From positions 1-32,000 of the forward strand of contig JAUWKS010000030.1 in NCBI GenBank assembly GCA_030614005.1: 32,000 bases of DNA. Reading direction: 5' to 3'. The notes under the pieces are model-generated. The model was not told where the DNA came from and did no database searches. It saw only the letters and a list, made by a program, of their open reading frames with translations. The position numbers were made by a program, and so were the translations under genes. The first letter of the stretch is position 1. Every line of letters starts with the position of its first letter. Origin of the DNA: Candidatus Heimdallarchaeota archaeon (lineage in GTDB: Archaea > Asgardarchaeota > Heimdallarchaeia > JABLTI01). Of this stretch, positions 1-7,569 are shown piece after piece.

Positions 1-111
1 ATTCTAATTTTAGACAAGCAACCAATTACTTGTACACAGCATAAGAAGTTTTTATTCCATTAAGGGAAATAGATAAATTCAAAAAAACATCGAATCGATG
101 TAGATTAAAAA

Positions 112-189
112 GTGCGAGTGGTCTAGCCTGGTGTGACGCCTCCCTCACACGGAGGAGATTCGCCGGTTCAAATCCGGCCTCGCACACCA
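112..189 (+). tRNA. tRNA-Val(CAC), CCA encoded
   Basis: Acceptor stem GTGCGAG/CTCGCAC, discriminator A then CCA (187-189). Anticodon arm CCTCC-CT CAC AC-GGAGG. T arm GCCGG-TTCAAAT-CCGGC. D loop TAGCCTGGT. Confidence 0.97.
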
Positions 190-681
190 ACAAGATTTAT
201 TTAAAAGATCATTTTCTCCACCGTGAAGTATTGGTAAAATTACAATCTTATCATCGGCATTTACTAGATCATCAAGTGAATATATTTCACCATTTACAAG
301 TATAGTATGTTTGTTAAACGCACCCTCTTTAAACCCGTTATTCTTCATGTAAATCCTGACAGTCATTGGGAATTGGTGTTGCTCAAATGGTTCAAAAGTA
401 AATTCCGGCAAACTCCTTTGTTTTAACTCAATAAGGTTATAGAAGTGAAGAAGAATTTTCACAACATCATCAAAGAGAGCGGGGTTTGTGAAATTGCCTT
501 TATTAGTAGCTTCGAATAGTTTCTTCTTGAGATTTTCGCACAAGAATATCTGTTCATCTGCTGAGAGTTTTTGCCAATTTTCTTTTAGTTTCTCGTGAAA
601 AATCTTTAACTTGAAATTTTTATTAAACTCAATTTCTTCGAGCAATTTCTTAGACCGTTTAAATTTATCAGATCCAACCAT
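145..681 (-). CDS. Fusion of an N-terminal helical domain and a ThiS/MoaD/SAMP-like ubiquitin-fold domain, with a 23-aa tail after the GG motif
   Basis: C-terminal part reads TVRIYMKNNG...ILVNGEIYSLDDLVNADDKIVILPILHGG, matching the MoaD/SAMP pattern (VAVNGE...L.DGDEVAI.PPVSGG). The last 45 nt overlap tRNA-Val antisense. Confidence 0.7.
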   Translation of the reverse strand: MVGSDKFKRSKKLLEEIEFNKNFKLKIFHEKLKENWQKLSADEQIFLCENLKKKLFEATNKGNFTNPALFDDVVKILLHFYNLIELKQRSLPEFTFEPFEQHQFPMTVRIYMKNNGFKEGAFNKHTILVNGEIYSLDDLVNADDKIVILPILHGGENDLLNKSCWCARPDLNRRISSV

Positions 682-966
682 AATTTGAACTTCATCCTTC
701 CATTTGATTAAGCTAATATCTCTTTTTTTACTGAAAAGTTTTTTCTATCTTGGTTAGAGAACACAAGTTCGGTTCATGCCCAACTTCGTGTGTCATTCTT
801 ATCTCAATCTATCATTCTATACTTACTTAAATTCATCAGTGTTTCCAAAATTAAATGTTGAATTATTTTCCGAATGCTTTCGACAAATTCTTTATTAATA
901 CTAGAGTATTTTGTAGTTTACTGTAAGTTTTTTCATTACAGTAAAAACAAATAGGTGAGAAGAGAT

Positions 967-1818
967 TTGTCTTTTGCAGATGTTAAAAAAAAACTACTCG
1001 TGAGTCCTTATCTTGGTATAGGGGCGGCCTCATTTTTAGGTGCCGCAGGAATAATAATCCATGCAGCAATTAATAGTATTAGTACGGAACTGCAAATTGG
1101 GTTTGTTGAAAATATAATAGGTTCAATTTGTTTTTTTATTGGGTTTGCGTCTATTATAGTAATTTTGGTTTTAATAGCAATAGCTTTTGAAAAAAAGCGA
1201 CAAGAAACAGTTGCTACCATAATTTTACTTTCGATATTCATTATCTTAGAGATCGCTCGTTCACATTACACGAGCCTTGGAAGCTCAAGCCCCTTCATAT
1301 ATATTGGTTTGATAATTTTTTATGGTGTTTTGAGAGGTATTGCTTTACAGAGAACAAACAAAGCATTAAAAATTCCATTTCCGGGGTATGGTACTAAAGC
1401 TTTTAGTGCTTATGGTTGGTCTTACATAGTTATTGGAACTCTTTCAATTATTCTTACTTTTTTAGGTGCTATGTTTTATAGCATGGGATTACTGCTTTTT
1501 GCATCGTGGCTTCTTACTTTTCTATATTTCTTTCAAGCAATTTGTTATCTAGTAATTGGCTTTAGATTTATTCAATATATTTTAGCTAATCCGGTAATTT
1601 CAGCGACTGCTTTAAAAAGAACAAGTACAACAACTACAGGAGTATCAACAACAATACCAATAACAGCGCAACCACAAGATTACTACCATCAAGAAGTTAT
1701 TCCTCAAGCAACTGTAAATGATGAATTTGAAATTGCTGAAGAATATTGTTCAAATTGTGGAGCTACTATAACTAGAGATAACCAAGTCTGCGAAATATGT
1801 GGAGAAGCGAGAAAGTAG
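967..1818 (+). CDS. Polytopic membrane protein with a C-terminal zinc ribbon
   Basis: About six hydrophobic segments, a Thr-rich linker, then CSNC-x10-CEIC. The GTG at 955 lies within an AGGTGA RBS, so TTG 967 is the likelier start. Confidence 0.8.
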   Translation: MSFADVKKKLLVSPYLGIGAASFLGAAGIIIHAAINSISTELQIGFVENIIGSICFFIGFASIIVILVLIAIAFEKKRQETVATIILLSIFIILEIARSHYTSLGSSSPFIYIGLIIFYGVLRGIALQRTNKALKIPFPGYGTKAFSAYGWSYIVIGTLSIILTFLGAMFYSMGLLLFASWLLTFLYFFQAICYLVIGFRFIQYILANPVISATALKRTSTTTTGVSTTIPITAQPQDYYHQEVIPQATVNDEFEIAEEYCSNCGATITRDNQVCEICGEARK

Positions 1819-1962
1819 CTTGCTTTCAAATCTCTTTTTGAACAAGCATTTGAGGACTCACATAATAGCAACAATGACTCCTTCTTAGCTGAGTTTCAAT
1901 TTTCTTTTGTTAAATATATTGTAAGACAAAAAGATGTTCACGCTCTACAGCGATGGCTACAT

Positions 1963-2217
1963 TTGCTTCAAGCATGTTACAATGCGGGAGAAAGAAGCAT
2001 TGATTCACACGCAACATTGTTTTCAGAATTAGTAACTATAATAACATTCCAACTTGATTTGCTTGATAAAAGCGAGTTTTCGAAAGAAAGCAAACTAATC
2101 TGGAGTATAAGTCACTTCATAGAAGATATGATTGATACTGGTAAAGAAAAGTTAGAAAAACAAGCACAGAGATTAACTGAATATTTTGAAGAAAGAGAAA
2201 TCAGCATTGAGAATTAG
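1963..2217 (+). CDS. Hypothetical helical protein, or the C-terminal continuation of the upstream gene past its TAG
   Basis: The frame is open from 1819 to 2214, in frame with the upstream CDS. The first canonical start is TTG 1963, with no clear RBS. Confidence 0.4.
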   Translation: MLQACYNAGERSIDSHATLFSELVTIITFQLDLLDKSEFSKESKLIWSISHFIEDMIDTGKEKLEKQAQRLTEYFEEREISIEN

Positions 2218-2281
2218 AAACCTCTTTTGGAAAAATAAACTAATAACTTCTTTTATTGAGGTTATCTTTCATTATTTCCAA

Positions 2282-2818
2282 CTATTTTCTTCTGCTAAAT
2301 TTAACTATTCTTTTTGTATTTTCTATTAGTTTGAATCTATTTGTTTTTTCAATTAACTCAGCAATAGCATCCGCTGACATTTTTGATTTTTGGATTGCAA
2401 TTATTCCATCTTTTGTGAGAATTCGATCCATTTCCAAGATAACGTCATCAATTATGTTCACTAATGAATGTATTATACCAAAAAAGAAAGCAAGATCAAT
2501 ACTATCATCAAGCAAGCTCGTCTTTGTGACATCCTCAAGTAGTAATTTAACATTTTTAATATTCTTCTTGGCAATTTTCTTCTCGACTTTTTTAATAGCA
2601 AATGGGTTTATATCATTTGCAAAGACGATTCCTTCTTCACCAACAATTTCTGCAGCAGGAATAGTGAAGAAGCCAGGACCACAACCGACCTCAAGTATCT
2701 TCTGTCCTTTATCAACACCAGCAGCTAATAGCAAATCTTCGGCTTTCATAAACAATCCATACATTGTTTCATGTATAAATGAAACACCCATAAAATGAAT
2801 TCTCTCACGGAACGACAT
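2282..2818 (-). CDS. Class I SAM-dependent methyltransferase
   Basis: Motif I ILEVGCGPG, motif II FANDIN, and later LEDVT and IDLAFF segments. Confidence 0.9.
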   Translation of the reverse strand: MSFRERIHFMGVSFIHETMYGLFMKAEDLLLAAGVDKGQKILEVGCGPGFFTIPAAEIVGEEGIVFANDINPFAIKKVEKKIAKKNIKNVKLLLEDVTKTSLLDDSIDLAFFFGIIHSLVNIIDDVILEMDRILTKDGIIAIQKSKMSADAIAELIEKTNRFKLIENTKRIVKFSRRK

Positions 2819-2999: not shown

Positions 3000-4658
3000 T
3001 TATTCTTCATCTGTTTCTTTTGTTATAAAATCGGGTTGCTTTGTATCACTAGTTTGAACACTACCATCATCATAGATGGTCCACCCTGCAGATGTTTTTA
3101 GACTCTTAACTGATTCCATAAATTGTTCTACTAATTTAGCGTATTTCTCTTGTTCTACAGTTTGATGATAAATTATTGTGATATCCTCTTTCAGATTAGC
3201 TCTTGTGCTTCTTATTCGACCCATAGCTTGTTCACGAGCTTCAATTGACAATGTTGTTCCAAAATGGATGCAGCGATCTGCTTGCGGTAAATCTGTTCCC
3301 TTTCGTATAAGCCGTTCGCTTGCAAATAGAACTTTAACTTCTCCACTCTTAAAGCGTTTAATTTGCATGTTTTGAGATTCACCACCCATACCACCATGAA
3401 CAAAGAGGTTTGGAATACCCTCCTTTTCAAGCAAACGAGAAAGATGTCTAGTCATATCAACAAAGCGTAAGAAAATAATTACTGAGCTATCTTCTTCCCG
3501 AACAAGTTTCTTTACAATTTGAATTAATCTCAAATCTTTAGGAGAAATTGTTCTAGATTTTCCGTCCTTCATCGCTATCTCTACCAATTCTTTGATGGCA
3601 AGCCAATCAGAAGAGTTCAAGAGAAGGCTGTTTCTTATCTTGAGTACAAAACCAGAGAATTTAGCAAAAGTGTGTTCAAAGAGAAATTGTCTAGCAATTA
3701 CTAGATCAAGATACGCACCAGCATTGATTATTAAATTCTTGAAAAACGCTTCAGAGCCTTTCGCAAAGTTCGTCCCTTGATAGGAGCGTTTCAATAAATT
3801 ATTAGCGAAAAGAAGCATTCTATTACCAGGCAAATTTTGGCCACTCAATCGTTTATAACCACTTCTCAATACTTTCTCAGTTTTTGAGCGAAGAATAGTA
3901 AGATATTGGTCCACCTCTTTTCTCATATCATCAAAAACATAAAATCGCTTCAATTTTATTGCAGGAGCATGTTCTTGGAAGTCGTCACTTTGTGGGTAAA
4001 TGAATTCAACCTTGTCTTTTCCACCCAAAGTTCCTTCGATGAAGGAGAGCTTACCTTTTTGAAGGAGGGATGCTGTTAAACCTAAGAATTTGGAACTTTC
4101 TTTAGCTTTTAACCGGTCAATCAAAGGAGCAAAGCGTTTGTCCATTCGAAATCCTCCACCGGCTACTGTTTGGGCAGTAATATCTAGAATCTCATCAATA
4201 ACAATAAACTCTGTTTTATCAAGATCTTCTGGGAGAACCCTTCTTTGTGAGGGCGTCCGTGCAAAGAGGGAATTCATTAATAGAGCAGGAGTAGCAAAAA
4301 TAAAACGTGATAAAGCAAAGTGCTTTTGAATGATTTTTGGTGGTAAACCTTTGCCTTCTGGTAAAAGGAATGAACCGCCATATCCAGATAAGTCAACTTG
4401 ACAAACATCATGTAACTGATGTTTTAGTTTTCTATCAGGGGATAAGAATAATACTTTGCCTTCAGGAGAAATGACTCCTTTTTTAAGCAACTCAACAATA
4501 ACCATAACAGCTACATTTGTTTTGCCCATCCCAGTAGGTAATAATAAAATAGCAGAACGCTTTTCATCTTCATACAATGATTTCAGAATTCTCTCAGCAG
4601 CATCTGTTTGATAATCTCTGGGGGTGAAGGATAAATCATCTAAACACTCGAGTGTCAC
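3000..4658 (-). CDS. SF2 DEAD/DEAH-box helicase, Hef/FANCM-like, with no nuclease domain
   Basis: Q motif PRDYQ, Walker A PTGMGKT, motif II VIDEI, motif III LTAS, helicase C-domain IIF...FVHGGM, and a motif VI-like QAMGR. Confidence 0.82.
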   Translation of the reverse strand: MTLECLDDLSFTPRDYQTDAAERILKSLYEDEKRSAILLLPTGMGKTNVAVMVIVELLKKGVISPEGKVLFLSPDRKLKHQLHDVCQVDLSGYGGSFLLPEGKGLPPKIIQKHFALSRFIFATPALLMNSLFARTPSQRRVLPEDLDKTEFIVIDEILDITAQTVAGGGFRMDKRFAPLIDRLKAKESSKFLGLTASLLQKGKLSFIEGTLGGKDKVEFIYPQSDDFQEHAPAIKLKRFYVFDDMRKEVDQYLTILRSKTEKVLRSGYKRLSGQNLPGNRMLLFANNLLKRSYQGTNFAKGSEAFFKNLIINAGAYLDLVIARQFLFEHTFAKFSGFVLKIRNSLLLNSSDWLAIKELVEIAMKDGKSRTISPKDLRLIQIVKKLVREEDSSVIIFLRFVDMTRHLSRLLEKEGIPNLFVHGGMGGESQNMQIKRFKSGEVKVLFASERLIRKGTDLPQADRCIHFGTTLSIEAREQAMGRIRSTRANLKEDITIIYHQTVEQEKYAKLVEQFMESVKSLKTSAGWTIYDDGSVQTSDTKQPDFITKETDEE

Positions 4659-4820: not shown

Positions 4821-6164
4821 TTAAGAAACGAATTTTATATTGTCTATAGCGACATAAGGAACATACCAACTAGGTGTCCCTCTAAAGGGTTTCAATTCTT
4901 TGCTAAGATGAGTGATTGATTTCAAATTAGTGAAGACATTACCAACAGCAGTAATTTCCTTGAGAGTATCAGTAATTTCACCGTTTTTGATTAAACGACC
5001 ACCTTTCACAGCACCAGAATAATCACCTGAAACGGGATCAGGAAAAGTGCTAATCCTCTGAATGAGGATTCCCTTCTTAATCTCAGGAATGATATCATCA
5101 ATGGATTTCTTGCCGGGAGTTATTTTTAGATTAGTAGTGGACAGATTTGGAATGTTCCTAAAACCACCGCCAGCATGACCTGTACTCTGGAGATTTTCTT
5201 TGTTCGCTGAGAAAGTATCATAAAAGACACCAGTAAATGTTCCTTTTTCTACGATAGTGAGTTTTTTATGAGGAACTCCTTCTCTATCGAAACTTCGACT
5301 ACCAGGACTATTTTTAATAGATCCATCGTCGACCAGAGTTACAGCATCAATAGCAATTTTATCTCCAAGTTTATCTTGTAGATAACTGGACCCAGATTGA
5401 ATATTGGTTGCTTTAGCTCCTTCAATAATAAGACCAAAAATCAATTGAGCAGCATCGGGAGTGAATATTGCCGGGCCTTCAAAAGAGTCAATTTTCTGAG
5501 CATTCAAGTTTTGTAATACTTTTTGAGAGAATTCTTTTGCTGTCTTTTGGAGATCCACATCTGCAACATTGATAACAGAATCGAATTCATAATCAAAAGA
5601 ACCGATATCAGCACCATCAACAGCCATCCCAAATAAACCATAACTCAAAGCAGATTTCTTATCGGAAGAATTTATACCATTTGAGTTTACAATAGCATAA
5701 TAATCTTCAGTTGTTTCGAAATTACCCGAATCAATAGAAATTCTCGAATCGATTTTGCGAGTAGTTTTTAGTAATTTGTTGCTGTAAGAAACGACATCAT
5801 CCATTGAAACATTACTAATCTCTTCATCAAAGATATTTGCTACTTGTGGAGTAGGTTGTTTTTGAGGTAAGAAATAATTATCTTCAGGAGGAGAAACCTT
5901 AGCAATAGAAAACGCTTCCTTAAGTGCTACTCCAATCTTCTTTTTGTTAAATGTATTAACACTAGCAAATCCCAAGGATTTATTCTTCAAAATACGTATT
6001 CCTACACCTTCAATAATCGTAGAGACAGCTGATTTCAAATTATTTGCTTCAAAGTTCACTGTCTTTTGTTTTTGTCTATGAGCATATAGCTCGACTTCAT
6101 CAGCACCTAATTTTTGAGCTTTAACAACAAAAGAATCTATTATTGACAATAATTCATCAGACAT
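4821..6164 (-). CDS. pmbA: PmbA/TldE subunit of the TldDE metalloprotease
   Basis: TldD/PmbA fold motifs (GIRI...LGFAS, FDREG, TGHA, GDYS) and no HExxxH. ATG at 6164 sits 2 nt after the tldD stop. Confidence 0.88.
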   Translation of the reverse strand: MSDELLSIIDSFVVKAQKLGADEVELYAHRQKQKTVNFEANNLKSAVSTIIEGVGIRILKNKSLGFASVNTFNKKKIGVALKEAFSIAKVSPPEDNYFLPQKQPTPQVANIFDEEISNVSMDDVVSYSNKLLKTTRKIDSRISIDSGNFETTEDYYAIVNSNGINSSDKKSALSYGLFGMAVDGADIGSFDYEFDSVINVADVDLQKTAKEFSQKVLQNLNAQKIDSFEGPAIFTPDAAQLIFGLIIEGAKATNIQSGSSYLQDKLGDKIAIDAVTLVDDGSIKNSPGSRSFDREGVPHKKLTIVEKGTFTGVFYDTFSANKENLQSTGHAGGGFRNIPNLSTTNLKITPGKKSIDDIIPEIKKGILIQRISTFPDPVSGDYSGAVKGGRLIKNGEITDTLKEITAVGNVFTNLKSITHLSKELKPFRGTPSWYVPYVAIDNIKFVS

Positions 6165-6165
6165 T

Positions 6166-7569
6166 TTATTTACCTCCAACACTACCTGAAACAAGAGCAA
6201 TCGCTCGAGTAGTTCCTCCACCACCATCAACTTTAGCTGGCTGCCACTTGCCACAATGTCCGTTACCCATTTCTAGTCTCCAATCTTTTGCAATTGCATC
6301 TACTGACTTCAGCACTTCGTAAGCATTTCCAGTTACTGTTACATTCTTTACGAGTCCACCTATTTCACCATTCTTTATTTCATACGTTTCTGGCATGGTA
6401 AACATAAATTCTGCCGTGCTATCTGCTTGTCCCCCACCGGGACTTACCAGATAATAACCGAATTTTATTCCTTCAAAGAGTTCTTCTTTCTTGAAATCAC
6501 CTGGTTCTAGGTAAGTATTCCTCATTCTAATTAGTGGTTCGTGGTTATATTCAAACGCACGCTCATTTCCCGTTGGTTCCACACCAAAATAGTGTGCGGA
6601 AAAACGACTATGCAAAAATGATTTCATTATTCCTTTCTCAATGATAACCGTTTTCTGTGGTTTTACACCGGCATCATCTACTGGCAACCAACCTGAAGCA
6701 TAATCTTGCTCTCCGGTATCGACCATTGTTACAAGTTCACTTGCAACTTTTTTACCGATGGTGCCTTTCGCAGCACTTCCAGACATAACAAAATCACTCT
6801 CTACAGTATGACCAATAGCTTCATGGGATATTATTCCCACTACTTTTGGATCCATTACTACAGTGTGTTTTCCTCCTTTTGCTAAAGGAGCATCTAGTAG
6901 TTTTATTGCTGTAGTAACAGCAGTTTCAACCATTTTCTCAGGAGGTGATATTTCAAATATTTCCCAACCACCACATAATCCTCGAGCAACCATAAATGGC
7001 ATCATTTTTCCTGCATCGTGTGCAATTGCTTGAACATAAAAATCAGGTTTGCTATCGAATACCTCAGCATTTGACCCATCTGAATTCATAACTATTCTAT
7101 GATTATGATATTCTCGCAAAAAGATCAGTGAGCCTTTAATTTTCTCATCTGCTTTCAGAACTTTTTGGTCAGTATCTGCAACAAGTTTCACTCGTTCCTC
7201 TATACTGTGATTTGCTAATGGATCTTTTCCCAAAGATTTGAAAACACCGATTACTGGTTTTATTGGTGCCAATTCAATCTTTTCTTTCATACTTGGAGCT
7301 AGATTTCTTGCAGCGGCAATAGCATCATTCAGAGTCCCTTTTACTGTGGATTTATCTAATTTGCTTGTGCTTGCAAAACCCCAGGCGCCGTCAACCAGAA
7401 CTCTTATTCCTATACCAGCAAAATCATCAACAATTGCTTTCTGAAGTTTTCCTTTGTCAGAGCGCACTTCGATCTTTTTCCTTTGATGATATCTTGCTTC
7501 TACATGAACGCCATCTGGTCGTTTATCTATTACTGTTTGTAGTAAGTCTTTCAATAAAAAAAACACCAT
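6166..7569 (-). CDS. tldD: TldD metalloprotease subunit
   Basis: HEAIGH metal-binding motif, RMRNT, and C-terminal CGK...GGG. Confidence 0.93.
   Translation of the reverse strand: MVFFLLKDLLQTVIDKRPDGVHVEARYHQRKKIEVRSDKGKLQKAIVDDFAGIGIRVLVDGAWGFASTSKLDKSTVKGTLNDAIAAARNLAPSMKEKIELAPIKPVIGVFKSLGKDPLANHSIEERVKLVADTDQKVLKADEKIKGSLIFLREYHNHRIVMNSDGSNAEVFDSKPDFYVQAIAHDAGKMMPFMVARGLCGGWEIFEISPPEKMVETAVTTAIKLLDAPLAKGGKHTVVMDPKVVGIISHEAIGHTVESDFVMSGSAAKGTIGKKVASELVTMVDTGEQDYASGWLPVDDAGVKPQKTVIIEKGIMKSFLHSRFSAHYFGVEPTGNERAFEYNHEPLIRMRNTYLEPGDFKKEELFEGIKFGYYLVSPGGGQADSTAEFMFTMPETYEIKNGEIGGLVKNVTVTGNAYEVLKSVDAIAKDWRLEMGNGHCGKWQPAKVDGGGGTTRAIALVSGSVGGK

What the first reader, a model, noticed from the sequence alone, without database searches (positions are those of the whole stretch)
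145..681. Ubiquitin-like fusion protein whose di-glycine motif is capped by a tail read antisense into tRNA-Val
Seen: about 90 aa of helical domain fused to a ThiS/MoaD/SAMP-like beta-grasp ending LPILHGG (GG codons 217-222). It continues for 23 more residues, and the last 14 plus the stop are the reverse complement of the tRNA 3' half. The codon after GG is GAA (214-216), one base from TAA. Established: SAMP/MoaD/Urm1 activation needs a free C-terminal GG, and ubiquitin precursors with extensions are matured by proteases, including JAMM/Rpn11-type enzymes in archaea. Inference: either a pro-form Ubl needing cleavage, or a stop-loss or assembly error. The N-terminal fusion is unusual in either case.
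Basis: partly seen in the sequence, partly recalled or inferred. Interest (0 to 1): 0.6.

Follow-up and report, generated by a model that had tools for sequence, protein, structure and literature searches.

The report
SAMP-like fusion protein with stop-loss tail
A real but rare Heimdall-archaeon gene joins a four-helix domain to a ubiquitin-like (ThiS/MoaD/SAMP-type) domain ending in Gly-Gly; relatives carry only 2-4 residues after the Gly-Gly, so the long tail that runs backwards into the tRNA-Val gene is an accidental one-base stop-loss or assembly variant.

Summary
ORF 145-681(-) gives 178 aa, the GG codons are 217-222, 23 residues follow, and the last 14 codons plus the stop lie antisense to tRNA-Val(CAC) at 112-189.

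The gene is real. Its orthologues are 68-99% identical, and differences from the one orthologue with DNA fall mostly at third codon positions. AlphaFold2 models a four-helix N-domain (8-88), a disordered linker and a C-domain. The best solved-structure matches of the C-domain are all TtuB, MoaD, ThiS or SAMP2. That domain is a paralogue of the genus's stand-alone 67-aa '...VLPILKGG-stop' proteins (hhalign 98%).

The long tail is peculiar to this assembly. Other species end GGRK-stop. A 99%-identical strain, seen on 3 contigs, ends GGENDL-stop. The window's species lost one base after GGA, which turned GGRK-stop into GGENDL. The window alone then has TTA (202-204) where that strain stops.

What is typical of the family is a short, variable cap after an invariant 13-residue block ending in GG. 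This fits a trimmed precursor like C. subterraneum pro-ubiquitin, QbsE or CxnE. Two distant homologues lack GG and no E1 or JAMM gene lies nearby, so a non-conjugated Ubl-domain protein remains a serious rival.

The family is narrow: 3 clusters among 1.84 billion representatives. Interest is modest.

The parts
145..681 (-). ORF as it reads in this assembly, 178 aa (P0001)
   Evidence: the same 178-aa protein is on record in NCBI and ENA
217..681 (-). Conserved core M1-G155, shared with all close orthologues
   Evidence: alignments; differences from orthologue L001 at codon positions 1/2/3 = 15/17/45
418..660 (-). N-terminal four-helix domain (residues 8-88), no recognisable family
   Evidence: AF2 pLDDT 80-87; only generic helical matches, Z <= 8.3; no Pfam family or Atlas hit
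379..417 (-). Low-confidence linker (residues 89-101); by eye, residues 93-100 FTFEPFEQ resemble the stand-alone paralogues' LKFIPEER (their residues ~12-19, L006)
   Evidence: pLDDT 33; sequence comparison by eye (inference)
217..378 (-). ThiS/MoaD/SAMP-type beta-grasp domain (residues 102-155) ending DDKIVILPILHGG
   Evidence: Pfam ThiS 20.9 bits, profile 22-76/76; Foldseek top hits TtuB, MoaD, SAMP2, ThiS; PDB profile MoaD E=0.0022; hhalign 98.1% to stand-alone paralogues
217..222 (-). Gly154-Gly155 codons (GGT GGA)
   Evidence: invariant in the 7 close orthologues
205..216 (-). ENDL cap, shared with the 99%-identical strain protein P0002; created by a 1-nt loss relative to the GGRK-stop orthologues
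   Evidence: a hidden TGA at 209-211 in the +1 frame lies 1 nt offset from the orthologue's TAG
202..204 (-). TTA codon where P0002 has its stop; it lies in a T4 run (AAAA at 203-206 on the + strand); this is the stop-loss site
   Evidence: P0002's DNA was not obtainable, so substitution versus +1 T is inferred
148..201 (-). 18 further read-through codons unique to this assembly, the last 14 antisense to the tRNA; TGA stop at 145-147
112..189 (+). tRNA-Val(CAC), intron-less, CCA encoded, convergent with the ORF
   Evidence: the orthologous tRNA sits at the same place in L001

Best explanation
SHOWN. The gene encodes a real, lineage-restricted two-domain protein of a Heimdallarchaeial genus. 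It has an orphan four-helix N-domain, a flexible linker, and a C-terminal ThiS/MoaD/SAMP-type beta-grasp. That beta-grasp is a diverged paralogue of the genus's own stand-alone 67-aa '...VLPILKGG-stop' protein. An invariant 13-residue block, DDKIVILPILHGG, ends the conserved part. What follows GG is short and unstable: RK in four orthologues, ENDL in the sister strain, nothing in one possibly cut record, and 23 residues here. Relative to the orthologue with GGT GGA AGA AAA TAG, the window's species lost one base. That turned GGRK-stop into GGENDL-stop. In this contig alone the next stop reads TTA, so the frame runs 19 more codons through the spacer and 45 nt of antisense tRNA-Val to the first TGA. 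The tail into the tRNA is therefore a by-product of a single-base difference, either a real strain variant or a consensus error 200 nt from a contig end. It is not a built feature. INFERRED (about 45%). The family is made as a short-capped precursor. A peptidase, with the genome's four JAB/MPN proteins as the obvious candidates, trims it to ...HGG. One of the three ThiF-type E1s then adenylates Gly155 for thiocarboxylation or conjugation, so the modifier carries a helical domain with it. If the cap is removed anyway, its sequence and length are neutral. That would explain why frameshift and stop-loss are tolerated right after GG while the 13 residues before it never change.
For: Real gene: orthologues at 99, 81, 77 and 68% identity; third-position excess 15/17/45; conserved position next to a convergent tRNA-Val in a second species. 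Fold: AF2 pLDDT 75.7 with a 17-sequence alignment. All of the first 12 Foldseek rows, and most of the first 22, are sulfur-carrier or SAMP beta-grasps: TtuB 5ztb_D, MoaD 2q5w_D, P. furiosus SAMP2 5lda_B (TM 0.66, 30% id), ThiS 1zud_2. The PDB profile hits MoaD, Ta0895 and SAMP2 all align to their terminal GG. Paralogy: hhalign 98.1%, E 8.6e-14; the stand-alone genes stop right after GG in 10 loci. Tail: P0002 (3 contigs) ends GGENDL, while P0003 to P0006 end GGRK. The DNA alignment shows the 1-nt gap at GGTGG-AGAAAAT. Machinery is present: 3 ThiF and 4 JAB genes score over the Pfam cut-offs. Precedents: a 9-aa propeptide after GG of C. subterraneum ubiquitin is cut by Rpn11 and blocks E1 activation until removed (PMC5654768); QbsE has GG-CF and CxnE has GG+10, each with a JAMM protease (PMC5925218).
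Against: No E1, JAMM, E2, MoaE or ThiG-type gene lies among the nine neighbours scanned, out to 14 kb, or beside the orthologue. The two distant homologues with the same architecture, P0009 and P0010 (about 32% identity), have no GG. The Pfam ThiS score is below the gathering cut-off (20.9 vs 22.5). The first strand or strands of the beta-grasp are not confidently modelled. P0002's DNA could not be fetched, so the exact stop-loss change is inferred. Reads could not be checked, so a real variant and an assembly error cannot be told apart.
Confidence: 0.6

Rival explanations
1. A non-conjugated Ubl-domain protein. The beta-grasp is a built-in interaction module and the GG is a leftover of its SAMP-like ancestry that is never exposed or activated. 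On this reading the cap residues are simply the protein's free, unconstrained C-terminus.
For: Every orthologue with a verifiable end has residues after GG. The distant homologues P0009 and P0010 keep the architecture but have DW or AK-type residues in place of GG, plus 8-9 further residues. There is no linked E1 or JAMM gene. N-terminal fusions are not typical of sulfur carriers (own knowledge).
Against: The longest invariant run of the close orthologues (A1) is the 13 residues ending exactly at GG, including the predicted flexible ILHGG (pLDDT < 50 from residue 154). Conservation stops abruptly at GG. The closest paralogues end GG-stop.
Confidence: 0.3
2. The 178-aa form does not exist in any cell. 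The TTA at 202-204 is a consensus or assembly error about 200 nt from the contig end, and the organism makes the 159-aa GGENDL form.
For: The window begins at base 1 of contig C54. Three other contigs of the same species-level cluster give the 159-aa form against one for the 178-aa form. The site is in a 4-base homopolymer. Another record of the family, P0008, is frameshifted inside the domain, so indel variants or errors do occur in these assemblies.
Against: P0002 differs from the window protein at two further residues, H102Q and G131E. The populations are therefore distinct and a true polymorphism is equally plausible. A 4-base run is not a typical short-read error site (own knowledge). Flanks on both sides of the tRNA match the orthologous locus, so the junction is not chimeric (motif comparison by eye).
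Confidence: 0.35
3. The long tail is purposeful: a strain-specific pro-peptide, or a device that couples the gene to tRNA-Val through antisense overlap.
For: Only that the frame stays open across the tRNA and that the record is annotated this way.
Against: The tail is absent from the 99%-identical strain and from all other orthologues. In the second species the gene stops 19 nt before the tRNA's 3' end (position 4494; the TAG ends at 4474). Antisense tRNA sequence is G+C-rich (62.8%) and so poor in stop codons, which makes a 19-codon run-on after a lost stop unremarkable (inference).
Confidence: 0.03

Closest known systems
Archaeal SAMPs and ThiS/MoaD/TtuB sulfur-carrier beta-grasps (e.g. P. 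furiosus SAMP2, PDB 5lda_B; T. thermophilus TtuB, 5gha/5ztb; MoaD, 2q5w_D)
   Same: The C-domain has the same fold class and size. Its ...GG tail aligns to the terminal GG of these proteins. Its closest relatives in the same genus are 67-aa stand-alone proteins ending GG-stop.
   Different: It carries an approximately 95-aa helical domain and linker in front, and has residues after GG. Its Pfam and NCBIfam scores are under the curated cut-offs. It has no partner genes nearby.
Capped precursors: Caldiarchaeum subterraneum pro-ubiquitin (GG + 9 aa, cut by Rpn11/JAMM), QbsE (GG-CF, QbsD) and CxnE (GG + 10 aa, CxnF)
   Same: A short, non-conserved peptide follows a conserved GG.
   Different: In those systems the JAMM protease is encoded in or close to the same cluster. 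Here the four JAB/MPN genes sit on other contigs. No cleavage has been shown.
Large eukaryotic Ubls with N-terminal extensions or extra domains (Atg12, ISG15, FAT10); from own knowledge, not tested here
   Same: A C-terminal Ubl with a Gly terminus that carries an extra N-terminal part, which would travel with the modifier.
   Different: There is no sequence relationship. The N-domain here is an orphan helical bundle, and conjugation is unproven.

Membership tests
ThiS/MoaD/SAMP sulfur-carrier-type beta-grasp (Pfam PF02597 clan) | Sequence score over the curated family threshold | tested here: not met
   PF02597 scores 20.9 bits against a cut-off of 22.5, E 5.4e-4. NCBIfam Urm1_like scores 19.9 vs 70 and moaD_arch 12.3 vs 49.5. 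Orthologues and stand-alone paralogues are likewise 17-20 bits.
ThiS/MoaD/SAMP sulfur-carrier-type beta-grasp (Pfam PF02597 clan) | Beta-grasp fold | tested here: met
   The AF2 C-domain has pLDDT 76-92. All of the first 12 Foldseek PDB rows, and most of the first 22, are TtuB, MoaD, SAMP or ThiS, with target TM 0.44-0.66 for the top ten, probability about 1.0 and E 0.025-0.3. Caveat: the N-terminal strand region (residues 89-101) is not confidently modelled.
ThiS/MoaD/SAMP sulfur-carrier-type beta-grasp (Pfam PF02597 clan) | Di-glycine at the position of the family's C-terminal GG | tested here: met
   The Pfam alignment ends at profile position 76/76 on G155. The PDB alignments end on the last residue of MoaD and Ta0895. 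The GG is invariant in the 7 close orthologues.
ThiS/MoaD/SAMP sulfur-carrier-type beta-grasp (Pfam PF02597 clan) | GG is the free C-terminus of the primary translation product | tested here: not met
   The window has 23 residues after GG, P0002 has 4, and P0003 to P0006 have 2. Only P0007, from a 962-nt contig, ends at GG.
ThiS/MoaD/SAMP sulfur-carrier-type beta-grasp (Pfam PF02597 clan) | Adenylation by a ThiF/MoeB/UbaA-type E1 | not testable with these tools
   Three ThiF-family genes are present in the genome (C123, C91, C94). None is linked to this gene.
Capped Ubl / sulfur-carrier precursors processed by JAMM (Cs-Ub, QbsE, CxnE type) | Short non-conserved peptide directly after a conserved GG | tested here: met
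   RK, ENDL or 23 aa follow the invariant DDKIVILPILHGG.
Capped Ubl / sulfur-carrier precursors processed by JAMM (Cs-Ub, QbsE, CxnE type) | JAMM/MPN+ protease encoded in or near the same locus | tested here: not met
   The nine neighbours out to 14 kb are a Zn-ribbon membrane protein, a methyltransferase, a DEAD helicase, a TldD/PmbA pair, a small zinc-ribbon protein, a beta-propeller/FG-GAP protein, endonuclease V and an actin-like protein. The JAB genes are on contigs C63, C30, C84 and C9.
Capped Ubl / sulfur-carrier precursors processed by JAMM (Cs-Ub, QbsE, CxnE type) | Proteolytic exposure of GG | not testable with these tools
   Needs biochemistry or proteomics.

The most novel reading that the evidence does not exclude
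A Heimdallarchaeial 'large SAMP': a 155-residue protein modifier made as a capped precursor and trimmed to ...HGG. It would be conjugated to targets or thiocarboxylated with a four-helix domain attached. That would make it an Asgard-lineage invention parallel to eukaryotic precursor-processed, multi-part Ubls, derived recently from a plain 67-aa SAMP-like gene of the same genus.
Probability: 0.25. Interest if true: 0.6.

Novelty: new variant of a known kind. Interest (0 to 1): 0.3.

Why it matters
For annotation, the 178-aa record overlapping tRNA-Val should not be taken as the natural product. The conserved product is 155 residues plus a 2-4-residue cap. For biology, the case shows a plain SAMP-like gene duplicated and fused to a new domain within one Heimdall genus, with a labile cap right after an invariant GG. 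If the cap is trimmed and the protein activated, this would be a small and tractable example of precursor processing and modifier elaboration in the archaeal group closest to eukaryotes. If not, it is one more lineage-specific Ubl-domain protein.

Tried and rejected
The DNA of P0002, P0003, P0005, P0009 and P0010 could therefore not be read, and the exact change at the lost stop is inferred.
- Two scans of metagenome contigs found nothing: peptide patterns and a degenerate DNA pattern for DDKIVILPILHGG.
- The genome-contig scan gave only one orthologous locus, L001.
- The first AF2 run, with 5 sequences, was unusable at pLDDT 40. It was replaced by the run with 17 sequences.
- The ESM Atlas gave no usable hit for the whole protein or for residues 1-95.
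- The exhaustive HMMER profile search gave 4 hits. One of them, P0011, is a 1320-aa WD40-repeat protein and was rejected as a repeat artefact.
- The N-domain gave only generic helical-bundle matches (Z <= 8.3, within the stated noise for helical models), so no fold assignment was made.
- 'Not a gene' was rejected on the grounds of orthologue conservation and the codon-position bias.
- A chimeric contig end was rejected because the tRNA and its far flank match the orthologous locus.
- Earlier notes of this scan near the window concern other genes and did not bear on this finding.

Full report
**What is there.** The window is the first 32 kb of contig C54 of a 3.6-Mb, 90%-complete genome. The only related named record is a Candidatus Heimdallarchaeota MAG. 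The window is about 33% G+C.

- ORF 145-681 on the minus strand gives 178 aa.
- The GG codons are 217-222 and the next codon is GAA at 214-216.
- 23 residues follow GG.
- tRNA-Val(CAC) lies at 112-189 on the + strand, with an encoded CCA. The last 14 codons and the TGA stop of the ORF are antisense to the tRNA's 3' 45 nt.

**The gene is real.**

- A word-indexed search of 5.8 billion clusters found four relatives at 99, 81, 77 and 68% identity, all 157-160 aa.
- Cluster look-ups added three more variants.
- Against the one orthologue whose DNA is available (L001, contig JABCTZ010000037), differences fall 15, 17 and 45 at codon positions 1, 2 and 3.
- The gene has the same start, preceded by a shared AAGGATGAAGT motif.
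- It has the same convergent tRNA-Val downstream in L001. The junction with the tRNA is therefore authentic and not a chimeric contig end.

**The two domains.** With only five sequences AlphaFold2 failed, at pLDDT 40. With 17 sequences (orthologues, two distant homologues and stand-alone paralogues; alignment A2) the mean pLDDT was 75.7.

- N-domain: four helices spanning residues 8-88, pLDDT 80-87.
- Linker: residues 89-101, disordered.
- C-domain: residues 102-153, pLDDT 76-92.
- The GG end is floppy.

Foldseek against the PDB matched the C-domain to sulfur-carrier or SAMP beta-grasps in all of its first 12 rows and most of the first 22. These include TtuB (5ztb_D, 5gha_E), MoaD (2q5w_D), P. 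furiosus SAMP2 bound to JAMM1 (5lda_B, 30% identity, target TM 0.66), ThiS (1zud_2) and SAMP1. The E-values are weak (0.025-0.3) but the probability is about 1.

Other evidence agrees:

- A sequence profile hits MoaD (E 0.0022), Ta0895 and SAMP2, each aligned to its terminal GG.
- Pfam ThiS scores 20.9 bits, just under the 22.5 cut-off, and covers profile positions 22-76 of 76.
- NCBIfam hits are also sub-threshold.

The N-domain has no family. There is no significant Pfam hit, no Atlas hit, and only generic helical-bundle similarities at Z <= 8.3.

**Where the beta-grasp came from.** Nine of ten other genomes of the same genus, and the window's own genome (C9:71.2 kb), carry a stand-alone gene of about 67 aa. 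Its product ends ...DDEIIVLPILKGG, followed at once by a stop. A profile-profile comparison of the fusion family with these proteins gives 98.1% probability, E 8.6e-14.

The fusion architecture is rare. It was found in only 2 of 82 class-level genomes. An exhaustive HMMER search of 1.84 billion representatives found just three true clusters; the fourth hit, a WD40 protein, is an artefact.

**The tail.** Among the close orthologues (alignment A1) the longest invariant run is the 13 residues DDKIVILPILHGG. Conservation stops abruptly at GG. What follows differs between records:

| Record | After GG |
|---|---|
| P0003, P0004, P0005, P0006 | RK |
| P0002 (99% identical, 3 contigs) | ENDL |
| P0007 (962-nt contig, may be cut) | nothing |
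| Window | 23 residues |

The DNA alignment explains the series. The orthologue reads GGT GGA AGA AAA TAG. The window reads GGT GGA GAA AAT GAT CTT TTA, one base shorter after GGA. It has a now out-of-frame TGA at 209-211, 1 nt offset from the orthologue's TAG.

That one-base loss is shared with P0002, so it is a real evolutionary event. It turned GGRK-stop into GGENDL-stop. The window then has TTA at 202-204, where P0002 must have a stop. The site lies in a T4 run, so the difference is either a T-to-A change or one extra T.

After that, the frame meets no stop through the short spacer and the G+C-rich antisense tRNA until TGA at 145-147. The read-through into the tRNA is thus an accident of one base. 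It is private to this contig and lies about 200 nt from the contig end. Whether it is a true strain variant or a consensus error cannot be settled without reads. P0002 also differs at two other residues, so the populations are distinct.

**How it most likely works.** These points are shown:

- a short, freely changing cap directly after an invariant GG-terminated block;
- closest paralogues that end GG-stop;
- three ThiF-type E1 genes (259, 333 and 284 aa) and four JAB/MPN genes (145, 285, 211 and 329 aa) elsewhere in the genome.

Precedents exist in the literature. The C. subterraneum ubiquitin is made with nine residues after GG, cannot be activated by E1 until Rpn11 removes them, and works if truncated at GG (PMC5654768). 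QbsE (GG-CF) and CxnE (GG plus a decapeptide) are sulfur carriers with a JAMM protease encoded in the same cluster and shown or proposed to trim them (PMC5925218).

From these I infer, at about 45%, that the family is a capped precursor. It would be trimmed to ...HGG and then adenylated, and the helical domain would travel with it. A cap that is discarded would be free to frameshift and lengthen, as observed.

Several facts count against this reading:

- None of the nine neighbours scanned out to 14 kb, nor the ORFs around the orthologue, is an E1, JAMM or sulfur-transfer partner.
- The two distant homologues with the same architecture (P0009 and P0010, about 32% identity) have no GG at all.

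A non-conjugated Ubl-domain protein with a vestigial GG is therefore a serious rival, at about 30%.

**Comparison and novelty.** At the superfamily level the C-domain belongs with ThiS/MoaD/SAMP beta-grasps: fold and GG position are met, while the curated sequence thresholds are not. It fails the 'free GG' criterion in the same way known precursors do. The new elements are the N-terminal four-helix domain and the recent origin from a stand-alone SAMP-like gene within one genus. The eye-catching part of the finding, a cap read antisense into a tRNA, is ordinary. I rate it a new variant of a known kind, of modest interest.

**Limits.** As a result only one orthologue's DNA could be read. No reads were available. 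All functional statements beyond fold and homology are inference.

Noticed in passing
L001:4494-4600 (minus strand) versus window 112-189: The orthologous tRNA in the second species carries a 30-nt intron, while the window's tRNA-Val(CAC) has none. Default ARAGORN missed it. With -i it calls Leu(CAA) by placing the intron at 35/36. Placing the intron at the canonical 37/38 site gives the loop CTCACAC, identical to the window's tRNA-Val (read by eye).
   Followed up: partly
protein P0008 (JGI contig, 137 aa): One record of the orthologue cluster is frameshifted inside the beta-grasp: after ...GAFGK it reads TYCPCKWGNIFTF. Indel variants or errors therefore occur in assemblies of this gene.
   Followed up: no
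window 955-2818 versus L001:2322-3882: Local gene order differs between the two species. In L001 the SAM-methyltransferase gene lies directly upstream of the fusion gene on the same strand. In the window the Zn-ribbon membrane protein gene (955-1818, +) sits between them.
   Followed up: no
L003:611-1629 (G000:C9, about 70.3-71.3 kb): The genome's stand-alone SAMP-like gene (70 aa, ends ILKGG-stop) lies just downstream of a gene that by eye looks like an Arf/Arl-type small GTPase; no Pfam scan was run on it. A JAB/MPN gene on the same contig (C9:9.2 kb) sits next to a Ras/Arf-family GTPase.
   Followed up: no
window 4821-7569 (minus strand): There is a pair of overlapping TldD/PmbA-family metallopeptidase genes (477 and 467 aa) 4 kb from the fusion gene. 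No link to the cap was tested.
   Followed up: no
window 75-100 and L001:4625-4645: A shared motif, TTTTTTGAATTTATCTAT on the fusion gene's strand, lies just upstream of the tRNA gene in both species. It is probably the tRNA promoter region (read by eye).
   Followed up: no
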